Source: Escherichia phage T7
DNA length: 37,664 nt
Sequence record: AY264776.1
Strand: one strand, 5' to 3'
The notes beneath the pieces are model-generated. The model saw nothing but the letters and a program-made list of their open reading frames with translations. It was not told the DNA's origin and did not search any database. Made by a program: the position numbers and the translations under genes. Shown here piece by piece: positions 1-37,664 of this stretch (its first letter is position 1; the number at the start of each line of letters is the position of its first letter).

Positions 1-137
1 TCCCCCATAGGGGGTACCTAAAGCCCAGCCAATCATCTAAAGTCAACCTTCGGTTGACCTTGAGGGTTCCCTAAGGGTTGGGGATGACCCTTGGGTTTGT
101 CTTTGGGTGTTACTTTGAGTGTTTCTCTGTGTCCCTA
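1..137. repeat. Left terminal direct repeat (partial; window starts ~23 bp inside the T7 terminal repeat)
   Basis: Bases 1-137 are repeated almost exactly at 37534-37664; sequence matches the T7 terminal redundancy (tcccccatagggggtacctaaagcccagcc...). Confidence 0.9.
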
Positions 138-149
138 TCTGTTACAGTC

Positions 150-350
150 TCCTAAAGTATCCTCCTAAAGTCACCTCTTAACGTCCATCCTAAAGCCAAC
201 ACCTAAAGCCAACACCTAAAGACCCATCAAGTCAACGCCTATCTTAAAGTTTAAACATAAAGACCAGACCTAAAGACCAGACCTAAAGACACTACATAAA
301 GACCAGACCTAAAGACGCCTTGTTGTTAACCATAAAGTGATAACCTTTAA
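150..350. repeat. Left-end short repeat array (cctaaag / ataaag heptamer family, SRL-like)
   Basis: Iterated cctaaag, acctaaagccaac x2, ataaagaccagacctaaagac x3 seen directly; matches the repeat region next to the T7 left terminal repeat. Confidence 0.8.
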
Positions 351-363
351 TCATTGTCTTTAT

Positions 364-386
364 TAATACAACTCACTATAAGGAGA
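364..386 (+). promoter_or_regulatory. T7 RNAP promoter phiOL (variant taatacaactcactataaggaga)
   Basis: 23-bp T7 promoter-like element, position equivalent to phiOL. Confidence 0.8.
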
Positions 387-437
387 GACAACTTAAAGAG
401 ACTTAAAAGATTAATTTAAAATTTATCAAAAAAAGTA

Positions 438-474
438 TTGACTTAAAGTCTAACCTATAGGATACTTACAGCCA
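438..474 (+). promoter_or_regulatory. E. coli sigma70 early promoter A1
   Basis: ttgact -35 (438-443), 17-bp spacer, gatact -10 (461-466); T7 A1 context. Confidence 0.85.
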
Positions 475-564
475 TCGAGAGGGACACGGCGAATAACCAT
501 CCCAATCGACACCGGGGTCAACCGAATAAATAGACAGCCTGATAAGTCGCACGAAAAACAGGTA

Positions 565-602
565 TTGACAACATGAAGTAACATGCAGTAAGATACAAAT
601 CG
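565..602 (+). promoter_or_regulatory. E. coli sigma70 early promoter A2
   Basis: ttgaca -35 (565-570), taagat -10 (589-594). Confidence 0.85.
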
Positions 603-689
603 CTAGGTAACATTAGCAGCGTCAACCGGGCGCACAGTGCCTTCTAGGTGACTTAAGCGCACCACGGCACATAAGGTGAAACAAAACAG

Positions 690-726
690 TTGACAACATG
701 AAGTAAACACGGTACGATGTACCACA
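690..726 (+). promoter_or_regulatory. E. coli sigma70 early promoter A3
   Basis: ttgaca -35 (690-695), 17-bp spacer, tacgat -10 (713-718). Confidence 0.85.
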
Positions 727-825
727 TGAAACGACAGTGAGTTACCACACTGAAAGGTGATGCGGTCTAACGAAACCTGACCTAAGACGCTCTTTAACAA
801 TCTGGTAAATAGCTCTTGAGTGCAT

Positions 826-886
826 GACTAGCGGATAACTCAAGGATATCGCAAGGTGCCCTTTATGATATTCACTAATAACTGCA
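826..886 (+). promoter_or_regulatory. RNase III processing site R0.3 (stem-loop upstream of gene 0.3)
   Basis: Conserved ctcaagg...gccctttatgat hairpin motif shared by other intergenic sites in this window. Confidence 0.5.
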
Positions 887-900
887 CGAGGTAACACAAG

Positions 901-1254
901 ATGGCTATGTCTAACATGACTTACAACAACGTTTTCAACCACGCTTACGAAATGCTGAAAGAAAATATCCGTTATGATGACATCCGTGACACTGATGACC
1001 TGCACGATGCTATTCACATGACTGCCGATAATGCAGTTCCGCACTACTACGCTGACATCTTTAGCGTAATGGCAAGTGAGGGCATTGACCTTGAGTTCGA
1101 AGACTCTGGTCTGATGCCTAACACTAAGGACGTAATCCGCATCCTGCAAGCGCGTATCTATGAGCAATTAACGATTGACCTCTGGGAAGACGCAGAAGAC
1201 TTGCTCAATGAATACTTGGAGGAAGTCGAGGAGTACGAGGAGGAGGAAGAGTAA
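901..1254 (+). CDS. 0.3: Ocr, DNA-mimic inhibitor of type I restriction-modification (T7 gene 0.3)
   Basis: 117-aa ORF, highly acidic, recognised as T7 Ocr ([12 protein letters not shown]...EYEEEEE). Confidence 0.95.
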
Positions 1255-1409
1255 TGTCTACTACCAACGTGCAATACGGTCTGACCGCTCAAACTGTATT
1301 TTTCTATAGCGACATGGTGCGCTGTGGCTTTAACTGGTCACTCGCAATGGCACAGCTCAAAGAACTGTACGAAAACAACAAGGCAATAGCTTTAGAATCT
1401 GCTGAGTGA
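1254..1409 (+). CDS. 0.4: T7 gene 0.4 small protein
   Basis: 51-codon ORF starting at the ATG overlapping the 0.3 stop ([51 protein letters not shown]); below the ORF-track length cutoff. Confidence 0.8.
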   Translation: MSTTNVQYGLTAQTVFFYSDMVRCGFNWSLAMAQLKELYENNKAIALESAE

Positions 1410-1411
1410 TA

Positions 1412-1465
1412 GACTCAAGGTCGCTCCTAGCGAGTGGCCTTTATGATTATCACTTTACTTATGAG
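1412..1465 (+). promoter_or_regulatory. RNase III site R0.5
   Basis: actcaaggtcgctcctagcgagtggcctttatgatt hairpin. Confidence 0.6.
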
Positions 1466-1471
1466 GAAGTA

Positions 1472-1556
1472 ATGTATATGGACTGATAGTCTTATCTTAC
1501 AGGTCATTTGCGGGTGGCCTGAATAGGTACGATTTACTAACTGAAAGAGGCACTAA
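1472..1556 (+). other. Deletion scar: first codons of gene 0.5 (atgtatatg) joined to the sequence immediately upstream of gene 1; genes 0.5, 0.6, 0.7 absent
   Basis: Gene 0.4 is followed after ~150 bp by the RNA polymerase gene; no kinase (0.7) ORF anywhere in the window. Confidence 0.8.
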
Positions 1557-4208
1557 ATGAACACGATTAACATTGCTAAGAACGACTTCTCTGACATCGA
1601 ACTGGCTGCTATCCCGTTCAACACTCTGGCTGACCATTACGGTGAGCGTTTAGCTCGCGAACAGTTGGCTCTTGAACATGAGTCTTACGAGATGGGTGAA
1701 GCACGCTTCCGCAAGATGTTTGAGCGTCAACTTAAAGCTGGTGAGGTTGCGGATAACGCTGCCGCCAAGCCTCTCATCACTACCCTACTCCCTAAGATGA
1801 TTGCACGCATCAACGACTGGTTTGAGGAAGTGAAAGCTAAGCGCGGCAAGCGTCCGACAGCCTTCCAGTTTCTGCAAGAAATCAAGCCGGAAGCCGTAGC
1901 GTACATCACCATTAAAACCACTCTGGCTTGCCTAACCAGTGCTGACAATATAACCGTTCAGGCTGTAGCAAGCGCAATCGGTCGGGCCATTGAGGACGAG
2001 GCTCGCTTCGGTCGTATCCGTGACCTTGAAGCTAAGCACTTCAAGAAAAACGTTGAGGAACAACTCAACAAGCGCGTAGGGCACGTCTACAAGAAAGCAT
2101 TTATGCAAGTTGTCGAGGCTGACATGCTCTCTAAGGGTCTACTCGGTGGCGAGGCGTGGTCTTCGTGGCATAAGGAAGACTCTATTCATGTAGGAGTACG
2201 CTGCATCGAGATGCTCATTGAGTCAACCGGAATGGTTAGCTTACACCGCCAAAATGCTGGCGTAGTAGGTCAAGACTCTGAGACTATCGAACTCGCACCT
2301 GAATACGCTGAGGCTATCGCAACCCGTGCAGGTGCGCTGGCTGGCATTTCTCCAATGTTCCAACCTTGCGTAATTCCTTCTAAGCCGTGGACTGGCATTA
2401 CTGGTGGTGGCTATTGGGCTAACGGTCGTCGTCCTCTGGCGCTGGTGCGTACTCACAGTAAGAAAGCACTGATGCGCTACGAAAACGTTTACATGCCTGA
2501 GGTGTACAAAGCGATTAACATTGCGCAAAACACCGCATGGAAAATCAACAAGAAAGTCCTAGCGGTCGCCAACGTAATTACCAAGTGGAAGCATTGTCCG
2601 GTCGAGGACATCCCTGCGATTGAGCGTGAAGAACTCCCGATGAAACCGAAAGACATCGACATGAATCCTGAGGCTCTCACCGCGTGGAAACGTGCTGCCG
2701 CTGCTGTGTACCGCAAGGACAAGGCTCGCAAATCTCGCCGTATCAACCTTGAGTTCATGCTTGAGCAAGCCAATAAGTTTGCTAACCATAAGGCCATCTG
2801 GTTCCCTTACAACATGGACTGGCGCGGTCGTGTTTACGCTGTGTCAATGTTCAACCCGCAAGGTAACGATATGACCAAAGGACTGCTTACGCTGGCGAAA
2901 GGTAAACCAATCGGTAAGGAAGGTTACTACTGGCTGAAAATCCACGGTGCAAACTGTGCGGGTGTCGATAAGGTTCCGTTCCCTGAGCGCATCAAGTTCA
3001 TTGAGGAAAACCACGAGAACATCATGGCTTGTGCTAAGTCTCCACTGGAGAACACTTGGTGGGCTGAGCAAAATTCTCCGTTCTGCTTCCTTGCGTTCTG
3101 CTTTGAGTACGCTGGAGTACAGCACCACGGCCTGAGCTATAACTGCTCCCTTCCGCTGGCGTTTGACGGGTCTTGCTCTGGCATCCAGCACTTCTCCGCG
3201 ATGCTCCGAGATGAGGTAGGTGGTCGCGCGGTTAACTTGCTTCCTAGTGAAACCGTTCAGGACATCTACGGGATTGTTGCTAAAAAAGTCAACGAGATTC
3301 TACAAGCAGACGCAATCAATGGGACTGATAACGAAGTAGTTACCGTGACCGATGAGAACACTGGTGAAATCTCTGAGAAAATCAAACTGGGCACTAAGGC
3401 ACTGGCTGGTCAATGGCTGGCTTACGGTGTTACTCGCAGTGTGACTAAGCGTTCAGTCATGACGCTGGCTTACGGGTCCAAAGAGTTCGGCTTCCGTCAA
3501 CAAGTGCTAGAAGATACCATTCAGCCAGCTATTGATTCCGGCAAGGGTCTGATGTTCACTCAGCCGAATCAGGCTGCTGGATACATGGCTAAGCTGATTT
3601 GGGAATCTGTGAGCGTGACGGTGGTAGCTGCGGTTGAAGCAATGAACTGGCTTAAGTCTGCTGCTAAGCTGCTGGCTGCTGAGGTCAAAGATAAGAAGAC
3701 TGGAGAGATTCTTCGCAAGCGTTGCGCTGTGCATTGGGTAACTCCTGATGGTTTCCCTGTGTGGCAGGAATACAAGAAGCCTATTCAGACGCGCTTGAAC
3801 CTGATGTTCCTCGGTCAGTTCCGCTTACAGCCTACCATTAATACCAACAAAGATAGCGAGATTGATGCACACAAACAGGAGTCTGGTATCGCTCCTAACT
3901 TTGTACACAGTCAAGACGGTAGCCATCTTCGTAAGACTGTAGTGTGGGCACACGAGAAGTACGGAATCGAATCTTTTGCACTGATTCACGACTCCTTCGG
4001 TACCATTCCGGCTGACGCTGCGAACCTGTGCAAAGCAGTGCGCGAAACTATGGTTGACACATATGAGTCTTGTGATGTACTGGCTGATTTCTACGACCAG
4101 TTCGCTGACCAGTTGCACGAGTCTCAATTGGACAAAATGCCAGCACTTCCGGCTAAAGGTAACTTGAACCTCCGTGACATCTTAGAGTCGGACTTCGCGT
4201 TCGCGTAA
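1557..4208 (+). CDS. 1: T7 DNA-directed RNA polymerase
   Basis: 883 aa; catalytic HDSFG motif and C-terminal FAFA present. Confidence 0.98.
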   Translation: MNTINIAKNDFSDIELAAIPFNTLADHYGERLAREQLALEHESYEMGEARFRKMFERQLKAGEVADNAAAKPLITTLLPKMIARINDWFEEVKAKRGKRPTAFQFLQEIKPEAVAYITIKTTLACLTSADNITVQAVASAIGRAIEDEARFGRIRDLEAKHFKKNVEEQLNKRVGHVYKKAFMQVVEADMLSKGLLGGEAWSSWHKEDSIHVGVRCIEMLIESTGMVSLHRQNAGVVGQDSETIELAPEYAEAIATRAGALAGISPMFQPCVIPSKPWTGITGGGYWANGRRPLALVRTHSKKALMRYENVYMPEVYKAINIAQNTAWKINKKVLAVANVITKWKHCPVEDIPAIEREELPMKPKDIDMNPEALTAWKRAAAAVYRKDKARKSRRINLEFMLEQANKFANHKAIWFPYNMDWRGRVYAVSMFNPQGNDMTKGLLTLAKGKPIGKEGYYWLKIHGANCAGVDKVPFPERIKFIEENHENIMACAKSPLENTWWAEQNSPFCFLAFCFEYAGVQHHGLSYNCSLPLAFDGSCSGIQHFSAMLRDEVGGRAVNLLPSETVQDIYGIVAKKVNEILQADAINGTDNEVVTVTDENTGEISEKIKLGTKALAGQWLAYGVTRSVTKRSVMTLAYGSKEFGFRQQVLEDTIQPAIDSGKGLMFTQPNQAAGYMAKLIWESVSVTVVAAVEAMNWLKSAAKLLAAEVKDKKTGEILRKRCAVHWVTPDGFPVWQEYKKPIQTRLNLMFLGQFRLQPTINTNKDSEIDAHKQESGIAPNFVHSQDGSHLRKTVVWAHEKYGIESFALIHDSFGTIPADAANLCKAVRETMVDTYESCDVLADFYDQFADQLHESQLDKMPALPAKGNLNLRDILESDFAFA

Positions 4209-4215
4209 CGCCAAA

Positions 4216-4239
4216 TCAATACGACTCACTATAGAGGAA
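4216..4239 (+). promoter_or_regulatory. T7 promoter phi1.1A
   Basis: caatacgactcactatagagg. Confidence 0.85.
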
Positions 4240-4291
4240 CAAACTCAAGGTCATTCGCAAAAATGGCCTTTATGATTGATCTTCTTCCGGT

Positions 4292-4313
4292 TAATACGAC
4301 TCACTATAGGAGA
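4292..4313 (+). promoter_or_regulatory. T7 promoter phi1.1B
   Basis: taatacgactcactataggaga. Confidence 0.9.
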
Positions 4314-4392
4314 ACCTTAAGGTTTAACTTTAAGACCCTTAAGTGTTAATTAGAGATTTAAATTAAAGAATTACTAAGAGAGGACTTTAAGT

Positions 4393-4521
4393 ATGCGTAA
4401 CTTCGAAAAGATGATCAAACGTTCTAACCGTAATGCTCGTGACTTCGAGGTAACCAAAGGTCGCAAGTTGAATAAGACTAAGCGTGACCGCTCTCACAAG
4501 CGTAGCTGGGAGAGTCAGTAA
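4393..4521 (+). CDS. 1.1: T7 gene 1.1 protein
   Basis: 42-aa basic ORF MRNFEKMIKRSNRNARDFEVTKGRKLNKTKRDRSHKRSWESQ. Confidence 0.85.
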   Translation: MRNFEKMIKRSNRNARDFEVTKGRKLNKTKRDRSHKRSWESQ

Positions 4522-4522
4522 G

Positions 4523-4780
4523 ATGGGACGTTTATATAGTGGTAATCTGGCAGCATTCAAGGCAGCAACAAACAAGCTGTTCCAGTTAGACTTAGCGGTC
4601 ATTTATGATGACTGGTATGATGTCTATACAAGAAAAGATTGCATACGGTTACGTATTGAGGACAGGAGTGGAAACCTGATTGATACTAACACCTTCTACC
4701 ACCACGACGAGGACGTTCTGTTCAATATGTGTACTGATTGGTTGAACCATATGTATGACCAGTTGAAGGACTGGAAGTAA
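4523..4780 (+). CDS. 1.2: Gene 1.2 protein (inhibitor of host dGTPase)
   Basis: 85 aa from ATG at 4523 (MGRLYSGNLAAFKAATNKLFQ...); ORF track shows an upstream in-frame extension. Confidence 0.9.
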   Translation: MGRLYSGNLAAFKAATNKLFQLDLAVIYDDWYDVYTRKDCIRLRIEDRSGNLIDTNTFYHHDEDVLFNMCTDWLNHMYDQLKDWK

Positions 4781-4800
4781 TACGACTCAGTATAGGGACA
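4778..4800 (+). promoter_or_regulatory. T7 promoter phi1.3
   Basis: taatacgactcagtatagggaca. Confidence 0.9.
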
Positions 4801-4860
4801 ATGCTTAAGGTCGCTCTCTAGGAGTGGCCTTAGTCATTTAACCAATAGGAAATAAACATT

Positions 4861-5940
4861 ATGATGAACATTAAGACTAACCCGTTTAAAGCCGTGTCTT
4901 TCGTAGAGTCTGCCATTAAGAAGGCTCTGGATAACGCTGGGTATCTTATCGCTGAAATCAAGTACAATGATGTACGCGGGAACATCTGCGTAGACAATAC
5001 TGCTAACAGTTACTGGCTCTCTCGTGTATCTAAAACGATTCCGGCACTGGAGCACTTAAACGGGTTTGATGTTCGTTGGAAGCGTTTACTGAACGATGAT
5101 CGTTGCTTCTACAAAGATGGCTTTATGCTTGATGGGGAACTCATGGTCAAGGGCGTAAACTTTAATACAGGGTCCGGTCTACTGCGTACCAAATGGACTG
5201 ACACGAAGAACCAAGAGTTCCATGAAGAGTTATTCGTTGAACCAATCCGTAAGAAAGATAAAGTTCCCTTTAAGCTGCACACTGAACACCTTCACATAAA
5301 ACTGTACGCTATCCTCCCGCTGCACATCGTGGAGTCTGGAAAAGACTGTGATGTCATGACGTTGCTCATGCAGGAACACGTTAAGAACATGCTGCCTCTG
5401 CTACAGGAATATTTTCCTGAAATCGAATGGCAAGCGGCTGAATCTTACGAGGTCTACGATATGGTAGAACTACAGCAACTGTACGAGCAGAAGCGAGCAG
5501 AAGGCCATGAGGGTCTCATTGTGAAAGACCCGATGTGTATCTATAAGCGCGGTAAAAAATCTGGCTGGTGGAAAATGAAACCTGAGAACGAAGCTGACGG
5601 TATCATTCAGGGTCTGATATGGGGTATAAAAGGTCTGGCTAATGAAGGTAAAGTGATTGGTTTTGAGGTGCTTCTTGAGAATGGTCGTTTAGTTAACGCC
5701 ACGAATATTTCTCGTGCCTTAATGGATGAGTTCACTGAGACAGTAAAAGAGGCCACTCTAAGTCAATGGGGATTCTTTAGCCCATACGGTATTGGCGACA
5801 ACGATGCTTGTACTATTAACCCTTACGATGGCTGGGCGTGTCAAATTAGCTACATGGAGGAAACACCTGATGGCTCTTTGCGGCACCCATCGTTCGTAAT
5901 GTTCCGTGGCACTGAGGACAACCCTCAAGAGAAAATGTAA
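4861..5940 (+). CDS. 1.3: ATP-dependent DNA ligase; motif I reads K34-Y-N-D-V-R instead of KxDGxR, so possibly inactive
   Basis: 359 aa; ligase motifs FMLDGELMV, EGLIVKD, WWKMK present; motif I at 4960-4977 is aag tac aat gat gta cgc. Confidence 0.9.
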   Translation: MMNIKTNPFKAVSFVESAIKKALDNAGYLIAEIKYNDVRGNICVDNTANSYWLSRVSKTIPALEHLNGFDVRWKRLLNDDRCFYKDGFMLDGELMVKGVNFNTGSGLLRTKWTDTKNQEFHEELFVEPIRKKDKVPFKLHTEHLHIKLYAILPLHIVESGKDCDVMTLLMQEHVKNMLPLLQEYFPEIEWQAAESYEVYDMVELQQLYEQKRAEGHEGLIVKDPMCIYKRGKKSGWWKMKPENEADGIIQGLIWGIKGLANEGKVIGFEVLLENGRLVNATNISRALMDEFTETVKEATLSQWGFFSPYGIGDNDACTINPYDGWACQISYMEETPDGSLRHPSFVMFRGTEDNPQEKM

Positions 5941-5943
5941 TCA

Positions 5944-5975
5944 CACTGGCTCACCTTCGGGTGGGCTTTTCTGCG
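5944..5975 (+). terminator. Host-type rho-independent terminator TE
   Basis: ggctcaccttcgggtgggc hairpin followed by ttttctgcgttt. Confidence 0.8.
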
Positions 5976-5993
5976 TTTATAAGGAGACACTTT

Positions 5994-6149
5994 ATGTTTA
6001 AGAAGGTTGGTAAATTCCTTGCGGCTTTGGCAGCTATCCTGACGCTTGCGTATATTCTTGCAGTATACCTTCAAGTAGCACTAGTAGTAATTGGCGCTTG
6101 TTATTTAGCGACAGTGTGTGCTTGCGTGTGGAGTATAGTTAACTGGTAA
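5994..6149 (+). CDS. 1.4: T7 gene 1.4 small hydrophobic protein
   Basis: 51 aa MFKKVGKFLAALAAILTLAYILAVYLQVALVVIGACYLATVCACVWSIVNW. Confidence 0.8.
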   Translation: MFKKVGKFLAALAAILTLAYILAVYLQVALVVIGACYLATVCACVWSIVNW

Positions 6150-6170
6150 TACGACTCACTAAAAGAGGTA
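6148..6170 (+). promoter_or_regulatory. T7 promoter phi1.5 (initiating base reads A, not G)
   Basis: taatacgactcactaaaagaggt; compare phi1.6 and phi4.3, which read cactaaaggag. Confidence 0.8.
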
Positions 6171-6176
6171 CACACC

Positions 6177-6269
6177 ATGATGTACTTAATGCCATTACTC
6201 ATCGTCATTGTAGGATGCCTTGCGCTCTACTGTAGCGATGATGATGATATGCCAAATGGTCACGCTTAA
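6177..6269 (+). CDS. 1.5: T7 gene 1.5 small protein
   Basis: 30-codon ORF MMYLMPLLIVIVGCLALYCSDDDDMPNGHA; contains a GAT x4 repeat. Confidence 0.7.
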   Translation: MMYLMPLLIVIVGCLALYCSDDDDMPNGHA

Positions 6270-6289
6270 TACGACTCACTAAAGGAGAC
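6267..6289 (+). promoter_or_regulatory. T7 promoter phi1.6
   Basis: taatacgactcactaaaggagac. Confidence 0.9.
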
Positions 6290-6294
6290 ACTAT

Positions 6295-6555
6295 ATGTTT
6301 CGACTTCATTACAACAAAAGCGTTAAGAATTTCACGATTCGCCGTGCTGACCGTTCAATCGTATGTGCGAGCGAGCGCCGAGCTAAGATACCTCTTATTG
6401 GTAACACAGTTCCTTTGGCACCGAACGTCCACATCATTATCACCCGTGGTGACTTTGAAAAAGCAATAGACAAGAAACGTCCGGTTCTTAGTGTGGCAAT
6501 GACCCGCTTCCCGTTCGTCCGTCTGTTACTCAAACGAATCAAGGAGGTGTTCTGA
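6295..6555 (+). CDS. 1.6: T7 gene 1.6 protein
   Basis: 86-aa ORF at the T7 gene 1.6 position. Confidence 0.85.
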
Positions 6556-7134
6556 TGGGACTGTTAGATGGTGAAGTCTGGGAAAAAAACCCGCCAGTAC
6601 AAGCAACTGGATGTATAGCTTGCTTAGAGAAAGATGACCGTTATCCACACATCTGTAACAAAGGAGCTAACGATATGACTGAACGTGAACAAGAGATGAT
6701 CATTAAGTTGATAGACAATAATGAAGGTCGCCCAAATGATTTGAATGGCTGCGGTATTCTCTGCTCCAATGTCCCTTGCCACTTCTGCCCCACAAATAAC
6801 GATCAAAAGATAACTTTAGGTGAAATCCGAGCGATGGACCCACGTAAACCACATCTGAATAAACCTGAGGTAACTCCTACAGATGACCAGCCTTCCGCTG
6901 AGACAATCGAAGGTGTCACTAAGCCTTCCCACTACATGCTGTTTGACGACATTGAGGCTATCGAAGTGATTGCTCGTTCAATGACCGTTGAGCAGTTCAA
7001 GGGATACTGCTTCGGTAACATCTTAAAGTACAGACTACGTGCTGGTAAGAAGTCAGAGTTAGCGTACTTAGAGAAAGACCTAGCGAAAGCAGACTTCTAT
7101 AAAGAACTCTTTGAGAAACATAAGGATAAATGTT

Positions 7135-7142
<8 letters not shown>
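6555..7142 (+). CDS. 1.7: Gene 1.7 protein (nucleotide kinase)
   Basis: 195-aa ORF, Cys-rich N-terminal region, T7 gp1.7-like. Confidence 0.9.
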
Positions 7143-7475
<333 letters not shown>

Positions 7476-7478
<3 letters not shown>

Positions 7479-31300: not shown

Positions 31301-32283
31301 CCACTAACTACCTTCTGGATGCTGCGCGTCAAGGTATGCTTGGGGATGTTATTAGTGCCACCCTAACAGGTAAGACTACCCGCTGGGAGAAAGAAGGCTT
31401 CCTTCGTGGTGCCTCCGTAACTCCTGAGCAGATGGCTGGCATCAAGTCTCTCATCAAGGAACATATGGTACGCGGTGAGAACGGGAAGTTTACCGTTAAG
31501 GACAAGCAAGCGTTCTCTATGGACCCACGGGCTATGGACTTATGGAGATTGGCTGACAAGGTAGCTGATGAGGCAATGCTGCGTCCACATAAGGTGTCCT
31601 TACAGGATTCCCATGCGTTCGGAGCACTAGGTAAGATGGTTATGCAGTTTAAGTCTTTCACTATCAAGTCCCTTAACTCTAAGTTTCTGCGAACCTTCTA
31701 TGATGGATACAAGAACAACCGAGCGATTGACGCTGCGCTGAGCATCATCACCTCTATGGGTCTCGCTGGTGGTTTCTATGCTATGGCTGCACACGTCAAA
31801 GCATACGCTCTGCCTAAGGAGAAACGTAAGGAGTACTTGGAGCGTGCACTGAACCCAACCATGATTGCCCACGCTGCGTTATCTCGTAGTTCTCAATTGG
31901 GTGCTCCTTTGGCTATGGTTGACCTAGTTGGTGGTGTTTTAGGGTTCGAGTCCTCCAAGATGGCTCGCTCTACGATTCTACCTAAGGATACCGTGAAGGA
32001 ACGTGACCCAAACAAACCGTACACCTCTAGAGAGGTAATGGGCGCTATGGGTTCAAACCTTCTGGAACAGATGCCTTCGGCTGGCTTTGTGGCTAACGTA
32101 GGGGCTACCTTAATGAATGCTGCTGGCGTGGTCAATTCACCTAATAAAGCAACCGAGCAGGACTTCATGACTGGTCTTATGAACTCCACAAAAGAGTTAG
32201 TACCGAACGACCCATTGACTCAACAGCTTGTGTTGAAGATTTATGAGGCGAACGGTGTTAACTTGAGGGAGCGTAGGAAATAA
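28327..32283 (+). CDS. 16: Internal core protein gp16 with N-terminal lytic transglycosylase domain
   Basis: 1318 aa; transglycosylase motif near N-terminus (WTESRF...GLMQF). Confidence 0.97.
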   Translation: MDKYDKNVPSDYDGLFQKAADANGVSYDLLRKIAWTESRFVHTAKSKTGPLGMMQFTKATAKALGLRVTDGPDDDRLNPELAINAAAKQLAGLVEKFDGDELKAALAYNQGEGRLGNPQLEAYSKGDFASISEEGRNYMRNLLDVVKSPMAGQLETFGGITPKGKGIPAEVGLAGIGHKQKVTQELPESTSFDVKGIEQEATAKPFAKDFWETHGETLDEYNSRSTFFGFKNAAEAELSNSVAGMAFRAGRLDNGFDVFKDSITPTRWNSHIWTPEELEKIRTEVKNLAYINVVTGGSPENLDDLIKLANENFENDSRAAEAGLGAKLSAGIIGAGVDPLSYVPMVGVTGKGFKLINKALVVGAESAALNVASEGLRTSVAGGDADYAGAVLGGFVFGAGMSAISDAVAAGLKRNKPEAEFDNEFIGPMMRLEARETARNANSADLSRMNTENMKFEGEHNGVPYEDLPTERGAVVLHDGSVLSASNPINPKTLKEFSEVDPEKAARGIKLAGFTEIGLKTLGSDDTDIRRVAIDLVRSPTGMQSGASGKFGATASDIHERLHGTDQRTYNDLYKAMSDAMKDPEFSTGGVKMSREEIRYTIYRRAALAIERPELQKALTPSERIVMYIIKRHFDTKRELMENPAIFGNTKAVSIFPESRHKGTYVPHVYDRHAKALMIQRYGAEGLQEGIARSWMNSYVSRPEVKARVDEMLKELHGVKEVTPEMVEKYAMDKAYGISHSDQFTNSSIIEENIEGLVGIENNSFLEARNLFDSDLSITMPDGQQFSVNDLRDFDMFRIMPAYDRRVNGDIAIMGSTGKTTKELKDEILTLKAKAEGDGKKTGEVHALMDTVKILTGRARRNQDTVWETSLRAINDLGFFAKNAYMGAQNITEIAGMIVTGNVRALGHGIPILRDTLYKSKPVSAKELKELHASLFGKEVDQLIRPKRADIVQRLREATDTGPAVANIVGTLKYSTQELAARSPWTKLLNGTTNYLLDAARQGMLGDVISATLTGKTTRWEKEGFLRGASVTPEQMAGIKSLIKEHMVRGENGKFTVKDKQAFSMDPRAMDLWRLADKVADEAMLRPHKVSLQDSHAFGALGKMVMQFKSFTIKSLNSKFLRTFYDGYKNNRAIDAALSIITSMGLAGGFYAMAAHVKAYALPKEKRKEYLERALNPTMIAHAALSRSSQLGAPLAMVDLVGGVLGFESSKMARSTILPKDTVKERDPNKPYTSREVMGAMGSNLLEQMPSAGFVANVGATLMNAAGVVNSPNKATEQDFMTGLMNSTKELVPNDPLTQQLVLKIYEANGVNLRERRK

Positions 32284-32303
32284 TACGACTCACTATAGGG
32301 AGA
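32281..32303 (+). promoter_or_regulatory. T7 promoter phi17
   Basis: taatacgactcactatagggaga. Confidence 0.95.
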
Positions 32304-32355
32304 GGCGAAATAATCTTCTCCCTGTAGTCTCTTAGATTTACTTTAAGGAGGTCAA

Positions 32356-34017
32356 ATGGCTAACGTAATTAAAACCGTTTTGACTTACCAGTTAGATGGC
32401 TCCAATCGTGATTTTAATATCCCGTTTGAGTATCTAGCCCGTAAGTTCGTAGTGGTAACTCTTATTGGTGTAGACCGAAAGGTCCTTACGATTAATACAG
32501 ACTATCGCTTTGTTACACGTACTACTATCTCTCTGACAAAGGCTTGGGGTCCAGCCGATGGTTACACGACCATCGAGTTACGTCGAGTAACCTCCACTAC
32601 CGATCGATTGGTTGACTTTACGGATGGTTCAATCCTCCGCGCGTATGACCTTAACGTCGCTCAGATTCAAACGATGCACGTAGCGGAAGAGGCCCGTGAC
32701 CTCACTACGGCTACTATCGGTGTCAATAACGATGGTCACTTGGATGCTCGTGGTCGTCGAATTGTGAACCTAGCGAACGCCGTGGATGACCGCGATGTTG
32801 TTCCGTTTGGTCAACTAAAGACCATGAACCAGAACTCATGGCAAGCACGTAATGAAGCCTTACAGTTCCGTAATGAGGCTGAAACTTTCAGAAACCAAGC
32901 GGAGGGCTTTAAGAACGAGTCCAGTACCAACGCTACGAACACAAAGCAGTGGCGCGATGAGACCAAGGGTTTCCGAGACGAAGCCAAGTGGTTCAAGAAT
33001 ACGGCTGGTCAATACGCTACATCTGCTGGGAACTCTGCTTCCGCTGCGCATCAATTTGAGGTAAACGCTGAGAACTCTGCCACAGCATCCGCTAACTCTG
33101 CTCATTTGGCAGAACAGCAAGCAGACCGTGCGGAACGTGAGGCAGACAAGCTGGAAAATTACAATGAATTGGCTGGTGCAATTGATAAGGTAGATGGAAC
33201 CAATGTGTACTGGAAAGGAAATATTCACGCTAACGGGCGCCTTTACATGACCACAAACGGTTTTGACTGTGGCCAGTATCAACAGTTCTTTGGTGGTGTC
33301 ACTAATCGTTACTCTGTCATGGAGTGGGGAGATGAGAACGGATGGCTGATGTATGTTCAACGTAGAGAGTGGACAACAGCGATAGGCGGTAACATCCAGT
33401 TAGTAGTAAACGGACAGATCATCACTCAAGGTGGAGCCATGACCGGTCAGCTAAAATTGCAGAATGGGCATGTTCTTCAATTAGAGTCCGCATCCGACAA
33501 GGCGCACTATATTCTATCTAAAGATGGTAACAGGAATAACTGGTACATTGGTAGAGGGTCAGATAACAACAATGACTGTACCTTCCACTCCTATGTACAT
33601 GGTACGACCTTAACACTCAAGCAGAACTATGCAGTAGTTAACAAACACTTCCACGTAGGTCAGGCCGTTGTGGCCACTGATGGTAATATTCAAGGTACTA
33701 AGTGGGGAGGTAAATGGCTGGATGCTTACCTACGTGACAGCTTCGTTGCGAAGTCCAAGACGTGGACTCAGGTGTGGTCTGGTAGAGCTGGCGGTGGGGT
33801 AAGTGTGACTGTTTCACAGGATCTCCGCTTCCGCAATATCTGGATTAAGTGTGCCAACAACTCTTGGAACTTCTGCCGTACTGGCCCCGATGGAACCTAC
33901 TTCATAGCCTCTGATGGTGGATGGTTACGATTCCAAATACACTCCAACGGTCTCGGATTCAAGAATATTGCAGACAGTCGTTCAGTACCTAATGCAATCA
34001 TGGTGGAGAACGAGTAA
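32356..34017 (+). CDS. 17: Tail fiber protein
   Basis: 553-aa ORF. Confidence 0.97.
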   Translation: MANVIKTVLTYQLDGSNRDFNIPFEYLARKFVVVTLIGVDRKVLTINTDYRFVTRTTISLTKAWGPADGYTTIELRRVTSTTDRLVDFTDGSILRAYDLNVAQIQTMHVAEEARDLTTATIGVNNDGHLDARGRRIVNLANAVDDRDVVPFGQLKTMNQNSWQARNEALQFRNEAETFRNQAEGFKNESSTNATNTKQWRDETKGFRDEAKWFKNTAGQYATSAGNSASAAHQFEVNAENSATASANSAHLAEQQADRAEREADKLENYNELAGAIDKVDGTNVYWKGNIHANGRLYMTTNGFDCGQYQQFFGGVTNRYSVMEWGDENGWLMYVQRREWTTAIGGNIQLVVNGQIITQGGAMTGQLKLQNGHVLQLESASDKAHYILSKDGNRNNWYIGRGSDNNNDCTFHSYVHGTTLTLKQNYAVVNKHFHVGQAVVATDGNIQGTKWGGKWLDAYLRDSFVAKSKTWTQVWSGRAGGGVSVTVSQDLRFRNIWIKCANNSWNFCRTGPDGTYFIASDGGWLRFQIHSNGLGFKNIADSRSVPNAIMVENE

Positions 34018-34075
34018 TTGGTAAATCACAAGGAAAGACGTGTAGTCCACGGATGGACTCTCAAGGAGGTACAAG

Positions 34076-34279
34076 GTGCTATCATTAGACTTTAACAACG
34101 AATTGATTAAGGCTGCTCCAGTTGTTGGGATGGGTGTAGCAGATGTTAGTGCTCGACTGTTCTTTGGGTTAAGCCTTAACGAATGGTTCTACGCTGCTGC
34201 TAGCGCCTACACAGTGGTTCAGATTGGTGCCAAGGTAGTCGATAAGATGATTGACTGGAAGAAAGCTAATAAGGAGTGA
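34076..34279 (+). CDS. 17.5: Holin
   Basis: 67 aa with one hydrophobic segment and charged C-terminus. Confidence 0.93.
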   Translation: MLSLDFNNELIKAAPVVGMGVADVSARLFFGLSLNEWFYAAASAYTVVQIGAKVVDKMIDWKKANKE

Positions 34280-34284
34280 TATGT

Positions 34285-34554
34285 ATGGAAAAGGATAAGA
34301 GCCTTATTACATTCTTAGAGATGTTGGACACTGCGATGGCTCAGCGTATGCTTGCGGATCTTTCGGACCATGAGCGTCGCTCTCCGCAACTCTATAATGC
34401 TATTAACAAACTGTTAGACCGCCACAAGTTCCAGATTAGTAAGTTGCAGCCGGATGTTCACATCTTAGGTGGCCTTGCTGGTGCTCTTGAAGAGTACAAA
34501 GAGAAAGTCGGTGATAACGGTCTTACGGATGATGATATTTACACATTACAGTGA
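34285..34554 (+). CDS. 18: Terminase small subunit
   Basis: 89 aa from ATG 34285 (MEKDKSLITFLEMLDTAMAQR...). Confidence 0.9.
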   Translation: MEKDKSLITFLEMLDTAMAQRMLADLSDHERRSPQLYNAINKLLDRHKFQISKLQPDVHILGGLAGALEEYKEKVGDNGLTDDDIYTLQ

Positions 34555-34555
34555 T

Positions 34556-34612
34556 ATATTCAAGGCCACTACAGATAGTGGTCTTTATGGATGTCATTGT
34601 CTATACGAGATG
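34556..34612 (+). promoter_or_regulatory. RNase III site R18.5
   Basis: ttcaaggccactacagatagtggtctttatggatg hairpin. Confidence 0.55.
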
Positions 34613-34648
34613 CTCCTACGTGAAATCTGAAAGTTAACGGAAGGCATT

Positions 34649-35080
34649 ATGCTAGAATTTTTACGTAAGCTAATCCTTTGGGTTCTCGCTGGGATGCTAT
34701 TCGGGTTAGGATGGCATCTAGGGTCAGACTCAATGGACGCTAAATGGAAACAGGAGGTACACAATGAGTACGTTAAGAGAGTTGAGGCTGCGAAGAGCAC
34801 TCAAAGAGCAATCGATGCGGTATCTGCTAAGTATCAAGAAGACCTTGCCGCGTTGGAAGGGAGCACTGATAGGATTATTTCTGATTTGCGTAGCGACAAT
34901 AAGCGGTTGCGCGTCAGAGTCAAAACTACCGGAACCTTCGATGGTCAGTGTGGATTCGAGCCTGATGGTCGAGCCGAACTTGACGACCGAGATGTTAAAC
35001 GTATTCTCGCAGTGACCCAGAAGGGTGACGCATGGATTCGTGCGTTACAGGATATTATTCGTGAACTGCAACGTAAGTAG
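34649..35080 (+). CDS. 18.5: Rz-like i-spanin
   Basis: 143 aa with N-terminal transmembrane segment. Confidence 0.9.
   Translation: MLEFLRKLILWVLAGMLFGLGWHLGSDSMDAKWKQEVHNEYVKRVEAAKSTQRAIDAVSAKYQEDLAALEGSTDRIISDLRSDNKRLRVRVKTTGTFDGQCGFEPDGRAELDDRDVKRILAVTQKGDAWIRALQDIIRELQRK
34764..35015 (+). CDS. 18.7: Rz1-like o-spanin, embedded in 18.5 in another frame
   Basis: 83-aa embedded ORF with lipobox-like LFLICVATISGCAS. Confidence 0.85.
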   Translation: MSTLRELRLRRALKEQSMRYLLSIKKTLPRWKGALIGLFLICVATISGCASESKLPEPSMVSVDSSLMVEPNLTTEMLNVFSQ

Positions 35081-35101
35081 GAAATCAAGTAAGGAGGCAA
35101 T

Positions 35102-36862
35102 GTGTCTACTCAATCCAATCGTAATGCGCTCGTAGTGGCGCAACTGAAAGGAGACTTCGTGGCGTTCCTATTCGTCTTATGGAAGGCGCTAAACCTACCG
35201 GTGCCCACTAAGTGTCAGATTGACATGGCTAAGGTGCTGGCGAATGGAGACAACAAGAAGTTCATCTTACAGGCTTTCCGTGGTATCGGTAAGTCGTTCA
35301 TCACATGTGCGTTCGTTGTGTGGTCCTTATGGAGAGACCCTCAGTTGAAGATACTTATCGTATCAGCCTCTAAGGAGCGTGCAGACGCTAACTCCATCTT
35401 TATTAAGAACATCATTGACCTGCTGCCATTCCTATCTGAGTTAAAGCCAAGACCCGGACAGCGTGACTCGGTAATCAGCTTTGATGTAGGCCCAGCCAAT
35501 CCTGACCACTCTCCTAGTGTGAAATCAGTGGGTATCACTGGTCAGTTAACTGGTAGTCGTGCTGACATTATCATTGCGGATGACGTTGAGATTCCGTCTN
35601 ACAGCGCAACTATGGGTGCCCGTGAGAAGCTATGGACTCTGGTTCAGGAGTTCGCTGCGNTACTTAAACCGCTGCCTTCCTCTCGCGTTATCTACCTTGG
35701 TACACCTCAGACAGAGATGACTCTCTATAAGGAACTTGAGGATAACCGTGGGTACACAACCATTATCTGGCCTGCTCTGTACCCAAGGACACGTGAAGAG
35801 AACCTCTATTACTCACAGCGTCTTGCTCCTATGTTACGCGCTGAGTACGATGAGAACCCTGAGGCACTTGCTGGGACTCCAACAGACCCAGTGCGCTTTG
35901 ACCGTGATGACCTGCGCGAGCGTGAGTTGGAATACGGTAAGGCTGGCTTTACGCTACAGTTCATGCTTAACCCTAACCTTAGTGATGCCGAGAAGTACCC
36001 GCTGAGGCTTCGTGACGCTATCGTAGCGGCCTTAGACTTAGAGAAGGCCCCAATGCATTACCAGTGGCTTCCGAACCGTCAGAACATCATTGAGGACCTT
36101 CCTAACGTTGGCCTTAAGGGTGATGATCTGCATACGTACCACGATTGTTCCAACAACTTAGGTCAGTATCAACAGAAGATTCTGGTCATTGACCCTAGTG
36201 GTCGCGGTAAGGACGAAACAGGTTACGCTGTGCTGTACACACTGAACGGTTACATCTACCTTATGGAAGCTGGAGGTTTCCGTGATGGCTACTCCGATAA
36301 GACCCTTGAGTTACTCGCTAAGAAGGCAAAGCAATGGGGAATCCAGACGGTTGTCTACGAGAGTAACTTCGGTGACGGTATGTTCGGTAAGGTATTCAGT
36401 CCTATCCTTCTTAAACACCACAACTGTGCGATGGAAGAGATTCGTGCCCGTGATATGAAAGAGATGCGTATTTGCGATACCCTTGAGCCAGTCATGCAGA
36501 CTCACCGCCTTGTAATTCGTGATGAGGTCATTAGGGCCGACTACCAGTCCGCTCGTGACGTAGACGGTAAGCATGACGTTAAGTACTCGTTGTTCTACCA
36601 GATGACCCGTATCACTCGTGAGAAAGGCGCTCTGACTCATGATGACCGATTGGATGCCCTTGCGTTAGGCATTGAGTATCTCCGTGAGTCCATGCAGTTG
36701 GATTCCGTTAAGGTCGAGGGTGAAGTACTTGCTGACTTCCTTGAGGAACACATGGTGCGTCCTACGGTTGCTGCTACGCATATCATTGAGATGTCTGTGG
36801 GAGGAGTTGATGTGTACTCTGAGGACGATGAGGGTTACAGTACGTCTTTCATTGAGTGGTGA
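35102..36862 (+). CDS. 19: Terminase large subunit (GTG start as read)
   Basis: 586 aa; N bases at 35600 and 35660. Confidence 0.96.
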
Positions 36863-36943
36863 TTTATGCATTAGGACTGCATAGGGATGCACTATAGACC
36901 ACGGATGGTCAGTTCTTTAAGTTACTGAAAAGACACGATAAAT

Positions 36944-36966
36944 TAATACGACTCACTATAGGGAGA
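36944..36966 (+). promoter_or_regulatory. T7 promoter phiOR
   Basis: taatacgactcactatagggaga. Confidence 0.95.
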
Positions 36967-37120
36967 GGAGGGACGAAAGGTTACTATATAGATACTGAAT
37001 GAATACTTATAGAGTGCATAAAGTATGCATAATGGTGTACCTAGAGTGACCTCTAAGAATGGTGATTATATTGTATTAGTATCACCTTAACTTAAGGACC
37101 AACATAAAGGGAGGTGACTC

Positions 37121-37270
37121 ATGTTCCGCTTATTGTTGAACCTACTGCGGCATAGAGTCACCTACCGATTTCTTGTGGTACTTTGTGCTGCCCTTGGGTA
37201 CGCATCTCTTACTGGAGACCTCAGTTCACTGGAGTCTGTCGTTTGCTCTATACTCACTTGTAGCGATTAG
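37121..37270 (+). CDS. 19.5: T7 gene 19.5 protein
   Basis: 49-codon hydrophobic ORF MFRLLLNLLRHRVTYRFLVVLCAALGYASLTGDLSSLESVVCSILTCSD. Confidence 0.75.
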   Translation: MFRLLLNLLRHRVTYRFLVVLCAALGYASLTGDLSSLESVVCSILTCSD

Positions 37271-37299
37271 GGTCTTCCTGACCGATTGATGGCTCACCG

Positions 37300-37509
37300 A
37301 GGGATTCAGCGGTATGGTTGCATCACACCACTTCATCCCTATAGAGTCAAGTCCTAAGGTATACCCATAAAGAGTCTCTAATGGTCTATCCTAAGGTCTA
37401 TACCTAAAGATAGGCCATCCTATCAGTGTCACCTAAAGAGGGTCTTAGAGAGGGCCTATGGAGTTCCTATAGGGTCCTTTAAAATATACCATAAAAATCT
37501 GAGTGACTA
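37300..37509. repeat. Right-end short repeat array (cctaaag / ataaag family, SRR-like) next to the concatemer junction
   Basis: Iterated cctaagg, ataaag, cctaaag motifs immediately left of the right terminal repeat. Confidence 0.75.
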
Positions 37510-37664
37510 TCTCACAGTGTACGGACTTAAAGTTCCCCCATAGGGGGTACCTAAAGCCCAGCCAATCATCTAAAGTCAACCTTCGGTTGACCTTGAGGGT
37601 TCCCTAAGGGTTGGGGATGACCCTTGGGTTTGTCTTTGGGTGTTACTTTGAGTGTCTCTCTGTG
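37510..37664. repeat. Right terminal direct repeat (lacks the last ~5 bases)
   Basis: tctcacagtgtacggacttaaagttccccca...; bases 37534-37664 repeat window bases 1-131 with one mismatch. Confidence 0.9.

What the first reader, a model, noticed from the sequence alone, without database searches (positions are those of the whole stretch)
1..37664. Genome-wide excess of G:C-to-A:T transitions, suggesting a mutagenised or long-passaged lineage
Wherever I can recall T7 sequence well (phi10 leader, Tphi-proximal region, terminal repeat, RNAP, capsid), the differences are almost all G-to-A or C-to-T, for example aatcacc to aatcatc and gttacc to gttact in the terminal repeat. Combined with nonsense or motif lesions confined to nonessential genes, this resembles alkylating-agent mutagenesis or mutation accumulation. 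I cannot confirm lineage identity.
Basis: inference. Interest (0 to 1): 0.6.

Follow-up and report, generated by a model that had tools for sequence, protein, structure and literature searches.

The report
Lab-mutagenised phage T7 strain K155

Summary
A full alignment shows 412 substitutions against wild-type T7 (AY264774). Of the 406 unambiguous ones, 367 (90%) are G:C>A:T (184 G>A, 183 C>T), 15 are A:T>G:C and 24 are transversions. The natural relative 13a differs from T7 in a balanced way: 28% GC>AT, 31% AT>GC, 40% transversions.

Mutated guanines are 3.8-fold enriched after a 5' purine, with no 3' effect and no strand bias. This is the O6-methylguanine (MNNG/MNU-type) fingerprint, not deamination.

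Selection was relaxed. Omega is about 0.5 in essential genes, with 0 stop codons against about 12 expected, and about 1.0 in nonessential genes. The only nonsense codon is in gene 4.7.

The window is 31 positions (22 unambiguous) from T7 "isolate K" (AY264775). Its variant proteins are exactly AAP34020, AAP34051 and AAP34058 on a 37,664-bp NCBI contig, which identifies it as AY264776, strain K155 (Bull et al. 2003).

The K>K155 step is different. It has 22 changes, 14 of them transversions, with 16 nonsynonymous to 1 synonymous and every coding change in an essential gene. It also adds two deletions of nonessential genes. This looks like compensatory recovery.

Verdict: real, correctly interpreted, already published, low novelty.

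The parts
1..37664 (.). Near-complete genome of phage T7 strain K155. It lacks the first 24 and last 5 nt of the reference. It carries 410 substitutions versus NC_001604 (412 versus AY264774), of which 367 are G:C>A:T.
1..136 (+). Left terminal repeat (reference positions 25-160), with C>T at window 36, 114 and 123.
37510..37664 (+). Right terminal repeat (repeat positions 1-155), with C>T at window 37527, 37569 and 37647. It lacks the position-147 change present in the left copy.
1477..1478 (+). Junction of a 1,590-bp deletion (reference 1502-3091) that removes genes 0.5, 0.6 and 0.7 and leaves a 4-codon remnant (MYMD*). There is ATG microhomology at both ends. It engulfs the smaller 821-bp deletion of isolate K.
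6237..6239 (+). In-frame +3 nt expansion of a GAT repeat in gene 1.5, shared with isolate K.
6585..6586 (+). Site of an in-frame 3-nt deletion in an A-rich run of gene 1.7 (reference 8197-8199), shared with isolate K.
12313..12720 (+). Nonessential gene 4.7, inactivated by G>A at window 12456 (TGG>TGA, W48*). This is the only nonsense codon in the window.
15217..15232 (+). Junction of a 654-bp deletion (reference 16832-17485) between two imperfect ~15-bp direct repeats, AACTA[T/G]AGGAGAAA, at the ribosome-binding sites of genes 5.5 and 6. It removes genes 5.5, 5.7 and 5.9. Genes 5.7 and 5.9 already carried nonsense codons in isolate K.
14869..15249 (+). Gene 5.3, whose stop codon was replaced by the deletion. 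The ORF is now 126 aa (118 in wild type) and overlaps the start of gene 6 at window 15236.
280..37317 (+). The 22 unambiguous differences from isolate K (recovery-phase changes), at window 280, 338, 4030, 10885, 11666, 12791, 13405, 17274, 17349, 20072, 20844, 21212, 21790, 22077, 25636, 26502, 30208, 32711, 34203, 35530, 36635 and 37317. Fourteen are transversions, the coding changes are 16 nonsynonymous to 1 synonymous, and all coding changes are in essential genes.

Best explanation
The window is the genome of bacteriophage T7 strain K155 (GenBank AY264776), an experimental-evolution product, and its history has two phases.

Phase 1 was mutagenesis. Wild-type T7 was propagated under a guanine-O6-methylating mutagen. 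From memory of Bull et al. [quoted passage not shown] O6-methylguanine pairs with T at replication and gives G:C>A:T, preferentially at G preceded by a purine. The bottlenecks fixed whatever was not lethal, so about 390 such mutations accumulated. Nonessential genes evolved neutrally and collected nonsense codons. Essential genes lost about half of their missense mutations and all of their nonsense mutations to selection. The result was 'isolate K'.

Phase 2 was recovery. Passage under effective selection, apparently without the mutagen, added about 20 mostly transversion, almost all amino-acid-changing substitutions in essential genes. These include second hits at two already mutated nucleotides. 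This phase also produced two deletions that discard nonessential and already-dead genes: 0.5-0.7 and 5.5-5.9.

Shown here: the spectrum, the context, the selection pattern, the relationship to K and the identity of the record. Inferred or recalled: the name of the chemical, the bottleneck protocol and the absence of mutagen in phase 2.
For: Identity: 99.9% identical to AY264775 'isolate K' and 98.8% to T7, with 31 differences from K against 412 from wild type. The gp1, gp10A and gp17 variants match AAP34020.1, AAP34051.1 and AAP34058.1 exactly, on a 37,664-bp contig. AY264776 is the one accession of the series missing from the collection and is named 'K155 strain of T7' in 10.1101/2020.07.05.188268. 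AY264774 is attributed to Bull et al. 2003 in PMC2680503, and that paper is cited for fixing random mutations through extreme bottlenecks in PMC4811365.

Spectrum: 367 of 406 changes are GC>AT.

Context: the per-site rate is 3.14% for purine-G and 0.83% for pyrimidine-G (GG 3.7%, AG 2.7%, CG 1.0%, TG 0.7%), p=2e-30. The 3' neighbour has no effect (p=0.25). The independent line P shows the same pattern at 4.9-fold. There is no strand asymmetry (p=0.22).

Selection: for GC>AT changes only, omega is 0.48 in essential and 0.96 in nonessential genes in the window. It is 0.47 and 1.07 in K, and 0.50 and 0.90 in P. Essential genes have 0 stops in all three, against 12.4, 12.4 and 8.1 expected (all substitutions).

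Phase 2: 8 transitions and 14 transversions, against 376 and 10 in phase 1 (Fisher p=1.6e-14). The 16:1 nonsynonymous-to-synonymous ratio has p=2.5e-4 against the phase-1 ratio. K's nonsense-bearing genes 5.7 and 5.9 are deleted in the window.

Literature: GC>AT dominates after nitrosoguanidine mutagenesis of T7 (PMC6042481). MNNG alkylates O6-G and gives mainly G:C>A:T (PMC12584984; PMC5306230).
Against: I could read neither Bull et al. 2003 nor the AY264776 nucleotide record itself. The chemical and the protocol therefore rest on memory and on citing papers, not on the source. [quoted passage not shown] Comutation clustering, a classical MNNG hallmark, is weak: the same-strand run excess has p=0.014 in the window and is absent in P. 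Two K-specific changes (window 280 and 338) are wild-type in the window, so the sequenced K clone may be a sibling of K155 and not its direct ancestor.
Confidence: 0.93

Rival explanations
1. The window is a natural T7-like relative, and its differences from T7 reflect ordinary divergence.
For: Natural T7 relatives at 90-95% identity exist, such as phage 13a.
Against: T7 versus 13a is balanced (28% GC>AT, 31% AT>GC, 40% transversions), with N/S 0.17 in essential genes and no purine-G preference. The window shows 90% GC>AT and N/S 1.08. The outgroup shows the window is derived from the T7 reference state at 333 of 357 sites. The record belongs to a laboratory series.
Confidence: 0.003
2. The changes come from cytosine-directed damage and not from guanine alkylation. 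Candidates are hydroxylamine or bisulfite treatment, an APOBEC/AID-type or engineered deaminase, or transcription-associated deamination of the non-template strand.
For: Hydroxylamine also gives GC>AT-dominated spectra in T7 (PMC6042481). Transcription-induced C>T in T7 has been described (reference list seen).
Against: The determinant is the base 5' of the G, which is 3' of the C on the other strand (purine-G 3.8-fold). The base 5' of the C, which defines the TC/CC deaminase motifs, has no effect (G-strand 3' neighbour p=0.25). G>A and C>T are equal on the uniformly transcribed + strand (p=0.22), which argues against non-template-strand deamination. By established knowledge the 5'-purine rule belongs to SN1 methylating agents (Burns, Gordon & Glickman 1987; existence of the reference confirmed, content recalled from memory).
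Confidence: 0.03
3. The changes accumulated spontaneously during very long unmutagenised laboratory passage.
For: The deletions in the 0.3-0.7 region are a recurrent outcome of plain laboratory passage of T7 (PMC8923235; PMC6042481).
Against: The steps that look unmutagenised have a different spectrum. K>K155 has 8 transitions and 14 transversions, and P>P82 has 14 transitions and 9 transversions among 23 changes, against 376 transitions and 10 transversions in phase 1. Dozens of other laboratory T7 records remain about as close to the reference as wild type is, all giving 98.8% identity to the window just as the reference does. About 400 fixed near-neutral changes with omega near 1 require both an elevated mutation rate and bottlenecks.
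Confidence: 0.01
4. The differences are sequencing or assembly errors in an old Sanger record.
For: The window contains 6 N positions and incomplete ends.
Against: 386 substitutions are shared with the separately deposited isolate K. The changes show clear biological selection: no stops in essential genes, and omega differing by gene class. They also show a chemical context bias.
Confidence: 0.002

Closest known systems
T7 isolate K (GenBank AY264775), the mutagenised parent line of the same study
   Same: It shares 386 substitutions with the window, plus the +3 nt GAT expansion in gene 1.5, the -3 nt deletion in gene 1.7 and the gene 4.7 W48* nonsense codon.
   Different: The window has 22 further unambiguous differences: 20 new changes and 2 sites that are wild-type in the window. 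Its left-end deletion is larger (1,590 bp against 821 bp). It has a new 654-bp deletion removing genes 5.5-5.9, of which 5.7 and 5.9 carry nonsense codons in K.
T7 isolates P and P82 (AY264777, AY264778), the independent replicate line
   Same: The spectrum is the same (93% GC>AT), as are the purine-G context (4.9-fold), the omega pattern (0.50 and 0.90) and a deletion in gene 0.7.
   Different: The mutated sites are almost entirely different. Only 24 sites are shared, of which 15 are GC>AT against 7.9 expected by chance. The deletion endpoints also differ.
MNNG/MNU-type (SN1 methylating agent) mutational signature, as in classical nitrosoguanidine-derived E. coli mutants
   Same: G:C>A:T predominates, at 80-85% in resequenced nitrosoguanidine mutants (PMC12584984) and 90% here. 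The mechanism is O6-methylguanine mispairing with T (PMC5306230). There is a 5'-purine preference (the rule itself is recalled from Burns et al. 1987).
   Different: The mutations here were accumulated over many sequential rounds in a 40-kb virus and filtered by plaque viability. The observed set is therefore a selected subset and not a raw spectrum. Local clustering is weak.
Wild-type T7 (NC_001604 / V01146 / AY264774)
   Same: Gene order is the same, all 17 phage promoter cores are intact, both terminal repeats are present and every essential ORF is intact.
   Different: There are 410-412 substitutions. GC content is 0.9 percentage points lower. A total of 2,244 bp is deleted in two large blocks, and eight nonessential genes are lost or inactivated: 0.5, 0.6A, 0.6B, 0.7, 4.7, 5.5, 5.7 and 5.9.

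Membership tests
Escherichia phage T7 (Teseptimavirus T7), laboratory derivative | Genome-wide nucleotide identity far above species level, with collinearity to the T7 reference | tested here: met
   98.8% identity over the first 25 kb. One collinear MAFFT alignment with only 5 gap blocks.
Escherichia phage T7 (Teseptimavirus T7), laboratory derivative | T7 promoters, terminal repeats and the full set of essential genes are intact | tested here: met
   All 17 promoter cores are unchanged. Both terminal-repeat copies are present. No essential ORF is disrupted.
GenBank AY264776, T7 strain K155 (Bull et al. 2003 series) | Encoded proteins identical to those deposited under the record, and the same record length | tested here: met
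   The window-specific gp1, gp10A and gp17 are exactly AAP34020.1, AAP34051.1 and AAP34058.1, each on a single 37,664-bp contig. These accessions lie between K's AAP33966-34017 and P's AAP34067 onward.
GenBank AY264776, T7 strain K155 (Bull et al. 2003 series) | Base-for-base nucleotide identity with AY264776.1 | not testable with these tools
   AY264776 is absent from the searchable collection.
GenBank AY264776, T7 strain K155 (Bull et al. 2003 series) | Descent from line K | tested here: met
   386 substitutions and 2 small indels are shared with AY264775, and only 22 unambiguous differences remain. Two of those differences are wild-type in the window, so the sequenced K clone may be a sibling.
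O6-guanine methylating-agent (MNNG/MNU-type) mutational signature | Overwhelming G:C>A:T transitions | tested here: met
   367 of 406 changes, or 90%.
O6-guanine methylating-agent (MNNG/MNU-type) mutational signature | Preference for G preceded by a purine (5'-RG), with no 3' effect | tested here: met
   The RG rate is 3.14% and the YG rate 0.83%, p=2e-30. The 3' neighbour gives p=0.25. The pattern is replicated in line P.
O6-guanine methylating-agent (MNNG/MNU-type) mutational signature | Both strands hit equally in duplex DNA | tested here: met
   184 G>A and 183 C>T, Fisher p=0.22.
O6-guanine methylating-agent (MNNG/MNU-type) mutational signature | Closely linked same-strand comutations (replication-fork clustering) | tested here: inconclusive
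   The runs test gives z=-2.46, p=0.014 in the window and p=0.79 in P. There is no excess of neighbours within 10 or 30 bp.
O6-guanine methylating-agent (MNNG/MNU-type) mutational signature | Documented exposure to the named chemical (MNNG) | not testable with these tools
   Bull et al. 2003 is not held. The same laboratory's use of nitrosoguanidine on T7 is documented only for other studies.
Mutation-accumulation (bottleneck) lineage | Near-neutral evolution of dispensable genes and only partial purging in essential genes | tested here: met
   Omega is 0.96-0.98 in nonessential and 0.48-0.57 in essential genes. There are 0 stops in essential genes against about 12 expected. The natural comparison gives N/S 0.17.
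Natural T7-like relative | Balanced substitution spectrum and strong purifying selection | tested here: not met
   The window has 90% GC>AT and N/S 1.08. The 13a comparison has 28%/31%/40% and N/S 0.17.
Cytosine-deaminase or transcription-associated deamination signature | Dependence on the base 5' of the C (TC/CC), or excess C>T on the non-template strand | tested here: not met
   The G-strand 3' neighbour has no effect (p=0.25), and there is no strand asymmetry (p=0.22).

The most novel reading that the evidence does not exclude
The recovery-phase (K>K155) substitutions are unusually rich in A:T>C:G transversions (9 of 22). They include F18C, next to the exonuclease region of the T7 DNA polymerase, and L223M, on a polymerase that already carried 10 mutagen-induced missense changes. 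One reading not excluded by the data is that the heavily mutated replication machinery of line K had an altered fidelity or spectrum (a mutator-like polymerase, or mishandling of oxidised dGTP). In that case the odd spectrum would be mutational and not purely a product of selection.
Probability: 0.07. Interest if true: 0.35.

Novelty: already known. Interest (0 to 1): 0.12.

Why it matters
As a discovery it matters little, because the strain and its mutation load were published in 2003. Its value is as a clean positive control. From raw sequence alone one can recover the class of mutagen (context-specific G:C>A:T), the population regime (omega near 1 in dispensable genes, about 0.5 in essential genes, no essential nonsense codons) and a later selection-driven recovery phase with a distinct spectrum and gene-shedding deletions. 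The omega of about 0.5 also gives a rough estimate: about half of mutagen-type missense changes in essential T7 genes are too harmful to survive single-plaque transfer. For genome scans, this record should be flagged as an artificial lineage so that its composition and pseudogenes are not mistaken for natural variation.

Tried and rejected
1. Fetching AY264776 directly failed because it is not in the collection. I established identity through exact protein look-up instead.

2. Bull et al. 2003, Springman et al. 2010 and Bull et al. 2013 are not held. Several literature searches found only brief citing statements.

3. I tested whether phage promoters were protected from mutation. There are 0 hits in the 17 promoter cores, but only 1.44 were expected (P(0)=0.24), so I make no claim.

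4. I tested for mutation clustering. There is no excess of close neighbours. The 1-kb overdispersion in the window (variance/mean 2.03 against 1.33) fits higher density in nonessential class II genes, not hotspots. The same-strand run excess is marginal and is not replicated in P.

5. I tested whether the two large deletions recur in other sequenced T7 lines. No other record spans either junction.

6. I considered whether the sites shared by K and P mean shared ancestry. This is partly trivial: two of them are an AY264774-specific TG/GT swap at 11061-11062, and one is a known laboratory-stock polymorphism (15094 G>T, PMC6042481). The rest look like parallel selection.

7. The gene-essentiality classes come from classical T7 genetics (my own knowledge). 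The PhageMaP preprint was consulted but gives a graded scale with acknowledged pooled-screen artefacts, so I did not use it for the binning.

Full report
WHAT THE WINDOW IS. A megablast of the first 25 kb finds phage T7 records at 98.8% identity and one record, AY264775 ('T7 isolate K'), at 99.9%. I fetched NC_001604, AY264774 (the depositing lab's wild-type T7+), AY264775 (K), AY264777 (P) and AY264778 (P82). AY264776, the only accession missing from that run, is not in the collection.

An exact-sequence look-up of three proteins that differ between the window and K (gp1, gp10A, gp17) returns AAP34020.1, AAP34051.1 and AAP34058.1. Each is on one NCBI contig of 37,664 bp, exactly the window length. 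These accessions lie between K's proteins (AAP33966-34017) and P's (AAP34067 onward), so they belong to AY264776. A preprint calls that record 'the K155 strain of the T7 phage' (10.1101/2020.07.05.188268). AY264774 is attributed to Bull et al. 2003 (PMC2680503), a study cited for fixing random mutations by serial extreme bottlenecks (PMC4811365). I could not read the 2003 paper itself.

CHECK OF THE OBSERVATION. A six-genome MAFFT alignment gives 412 substitutions between the window and wild type. These are 184 G>A, 183 C>T, 11 A>G, 4 T>C, 24 transversions and 6 positions that are N in the window. G:C>A:T therefore makes up 367 of 406 unambiguous changes, or 90%. The per-site rate is roughly 20-50 times higher at G/C than the transition rate at A/T.

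The natural relative 13a has the wild-type T7 base at 333 of 357 informative sites, so the window carries the derived states. GC content drops from 48.40% to 47.49%.

As a control for ordinary divergence, T7 versus phage 13a (94.4% identity, 1,994 substitutions) shows 28% GC>AT, 31% AT>GC and 40% transversions. Its N/S in essential genes is 0.17. The window's GC>AT fraction differs from that control with binomial p=6e-153.

WHAT KIND OF MUTATIONAL PROCESS. I read every G:C>A:T change on the strand that carries the G. The mutation rate then depends strongly on the 5' neighbour: GG 3.70%, AG 2.71%, CG 1.04%, TG 0.67%. Purine-G is hit 3.8 times more often than pyrimidine-G (p=2e-30). The 3' neighbour has no effect (p=0.25). 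The independently evolved line P shows the same pattern at 4.9-fold. G>A and C>T are equally frequent on the + strand, which is the coding strand of every T7 gene (Fisher p=0.22).

This combination is what O6-methylguanine mispairing with thymine produces after SN1 methylating agents such as MNNG. The mechanism is stated in PMC12584984 and PMC5306230. The 5'-purine rule is from my own knowledge of Burns, Gordon & Glickman 1987; one search confirms that the reference exists but not what it says.

The pattern is not what cytosine deaminases give, because they depend on the base 5' of the C. It is also not what transcription-linked deamination gives, because that is biased to the non-template strand. 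GC>AT domination after nitrosoguanidine treatment of T7 is documented by the same laboratory (PMC6042481). Classical MNNG comutation clustering is at best weak here: the same-strand runs test gives p=0.014 in the window and p=0.79 in P, with no excess of close neighbours.

WHAT SELECTION REGIME. I built a neutral expectation by applying G>A and C>T at every G/C site of each gene, weighted by the four observed 5'-context rates. I then compared expected and observed synonymous, missense and nonsense counts. Essential and nonessential classes follow classical T7 genetics, which is my own knowledge.

For GC>AT changes only, omega is 0.48 in essential genes and 0.96 in nonessential genes in the window. 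The values are 0.47 and 1.07 in K, and 0.50 and 0.90 in P. With all substitutions counted, the window gives 0.57 and 0.98. Essential genes contain no nonsense codons in any of the three genomes, although 12.4, 12.4 and 8.1 are expected from the synonymous counts.

Nonessential genes do carry nonsense codons: gene 4.7 W48* in the window, and additionally genes 5.7 and 5.9 in K. So dispensable genes drifted neutrally. In essential genes only about half of missense changes, and all nonsense changes, were removed. This is far weaker purging than in nature (N/S 0.17). It fits repeated single-plaque bottlenecks under a high mutation rate.

All 17 phage promoter cores are untouched, but only 1.4 hits were expected, so this is not evidence of protection.

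THE SECOND PHASE (K TO K155). The window differs from K at 31 aligned positions, of which 22 are unambiguous. Their character is entirely different. There are 8 transitions and 14 transversions, against 376 and 10 among the changes shared with K (Fisher p=1.6e-14).

All 17 coding changes lie in essential genes: 1, 4, 5, 7.3, 9, 10, 11, 14, 15, 16, 17, 17.5 and 19. Sixteen of them change the amino acid (p=2.5e-4 against the phase-1 ratio). Two are second hits on nucleotides already mutated in K: gp10A codon 172 went A>T>P, and gp15 codon 149 went V>A>E. Two sites near the left end are wild-type again.

Two deletions are new or enlarged. The first is a 1,590-bp deletion (reference 1502-3091) with ATG microhomology. 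It swallows K's 821-bp deletion and removes genes 0.5-0.7. The second is a 654-bp deletion (reference 16832-17485) between two imperfect ~15-bp direct repeats at the ribosome-binding sites of genes 5.5 and 6. It removes genes 5.5, 5.7 and 5.9, of which 5.7 and 5.9 were already dead in K. Neither junction occurs in any other phage record.

This is the pattern expected from fitness recovery under effective selection without mutagen. The absence of mutagen is my inference from the spectrum.

RIVALS. A natural relative is excluded by the control comparison and the polarity test. Cytosine-directed damage is disfavoured by the context and the strand symmetry. Unmutagenised long passage is disfavoured by the different spectrum of the K>K155 and P>P82 steps. 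Sequencing error is excluded by the 386 changes shared with a separately deposited genome and by the selection signal. Which alkylating chemical was used cannot be settled from sequence alone.

VERDICT. The object is a known, published laboratory strain, so the novelty class is 'already known' and the interest is low. The remaining curiosity is the A:T>C:G-rich spectrum of the recovery phase (9 of 22 changes), which I could not explain.

Noticed in passing
window 123 versus window 37656: The two terminal-repeat copies are not identical. Repeat position 147 is T (C>T) in the left copy but still C in the right copy, whereas positions 60 and 138 are mutated in both. T7 terminal repeats are regenerated from a single copy at each concatemer junction, so a stable difference is unexpected. 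It may be a base-calling error or a very recent change.
   Followed up: partly
window 4030, 10885, 11666, 12791, 17349, 20072, 21212, 25636, 32711, 34203: The K>K155 changes are rich in A:T>C:G transversions (9 of 22). Three changes create cysteines in the transcription and replication enzymes: gp1 F825C, gp4 S312C (a C>G change) and gp5 F18C. The parallel P>P82 step is instead rich in G>T and G>A. No explanation was found.
   Followed up: partly
window 21212 (gene 10A codon 172) and window 26502 (gene 15 codon 149): These are second hits on the very nucleotide mutated in isolate K: capsid A172 went to T and then P, and gp15 V149 went to A and then E. They look like compensatory replacements and not true reversions.
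   Followed up: partly
window 33167, 33786, 33896 (gene 17); 17303, 17310 (gene 7.3): The independent lines K/K155 and P share the amino-acid changes gp17 G271E, S477R and I514T, and gp7.3 T13A and S15F. S477R is reached through different nucleotides (AGT>AGA in the window, AGT>AGG in P), which points to parallel selection on adsorption proteins and not to shared ancestry. Shared GC>AT sites overall number 15, against 7.9 expected (p=0.015).
   Followed up: partly
window 14869-15249 and 15236: The 654-bp deletion replaces the stop codon of gene 5.3. The ORF is now 126 aa instead of 118 and overlaps the start of gene 6, which sits behind the retained right-hand copy of the repeated ribosome-binding-site sequence.
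   Followed up: yes
window 6237-6239 and 6585/6586: There are two in-frame slippage events in nonessential genes, both inherited from K. One is a GAT-repeat expansion (GATGATGAT becomes GATGATGATGAT) in gene 1.5. The other is a 3-nt loss in an A-rich run of gene 1.7.
   Followed up: yes
window about 4390-6380 (reference 6-8 kb, genes 1.1-1.6): This 2-kb bin has the highest mutation density in the genome, 36 GC>AT changes against a typical 12-23. It covers the nonessential class II genes 1.1-1.6. The pattern fits relaxed selection and not a hotspot.
   Followed up: partly
window 10477, 10633, 20375, 25678, 35600, 35660; both ends of the window: The window has six N base calls. It also lacks the first 24 and last 5 nt of the T7 genome. 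Both fit an older Sanger-era deposit with incompletely sequenced ends.
   Followed up: yes
L003 (AY264774) 11062-11063, corresponding to window 9447-9448: The lab's wild-type record AY264774 has GT where NC_001604, the window and line P all have TG (gene 3.5). This looks like a record-specific dinucleotide swap in AY264774 and not a mutation in the evolved lines.
   Followed up: partly
protein cluster 1: The 90%-identity cluster containing T7 RNA polymerase also lists 278-287-aa Monkeypox 'mRNA capping enzyme small subunit' entries and a Bacillus cereus fragment. This appears to be a clustering or contamination oddity in the protein collection and is unrelated to the window.
   Followed up: no
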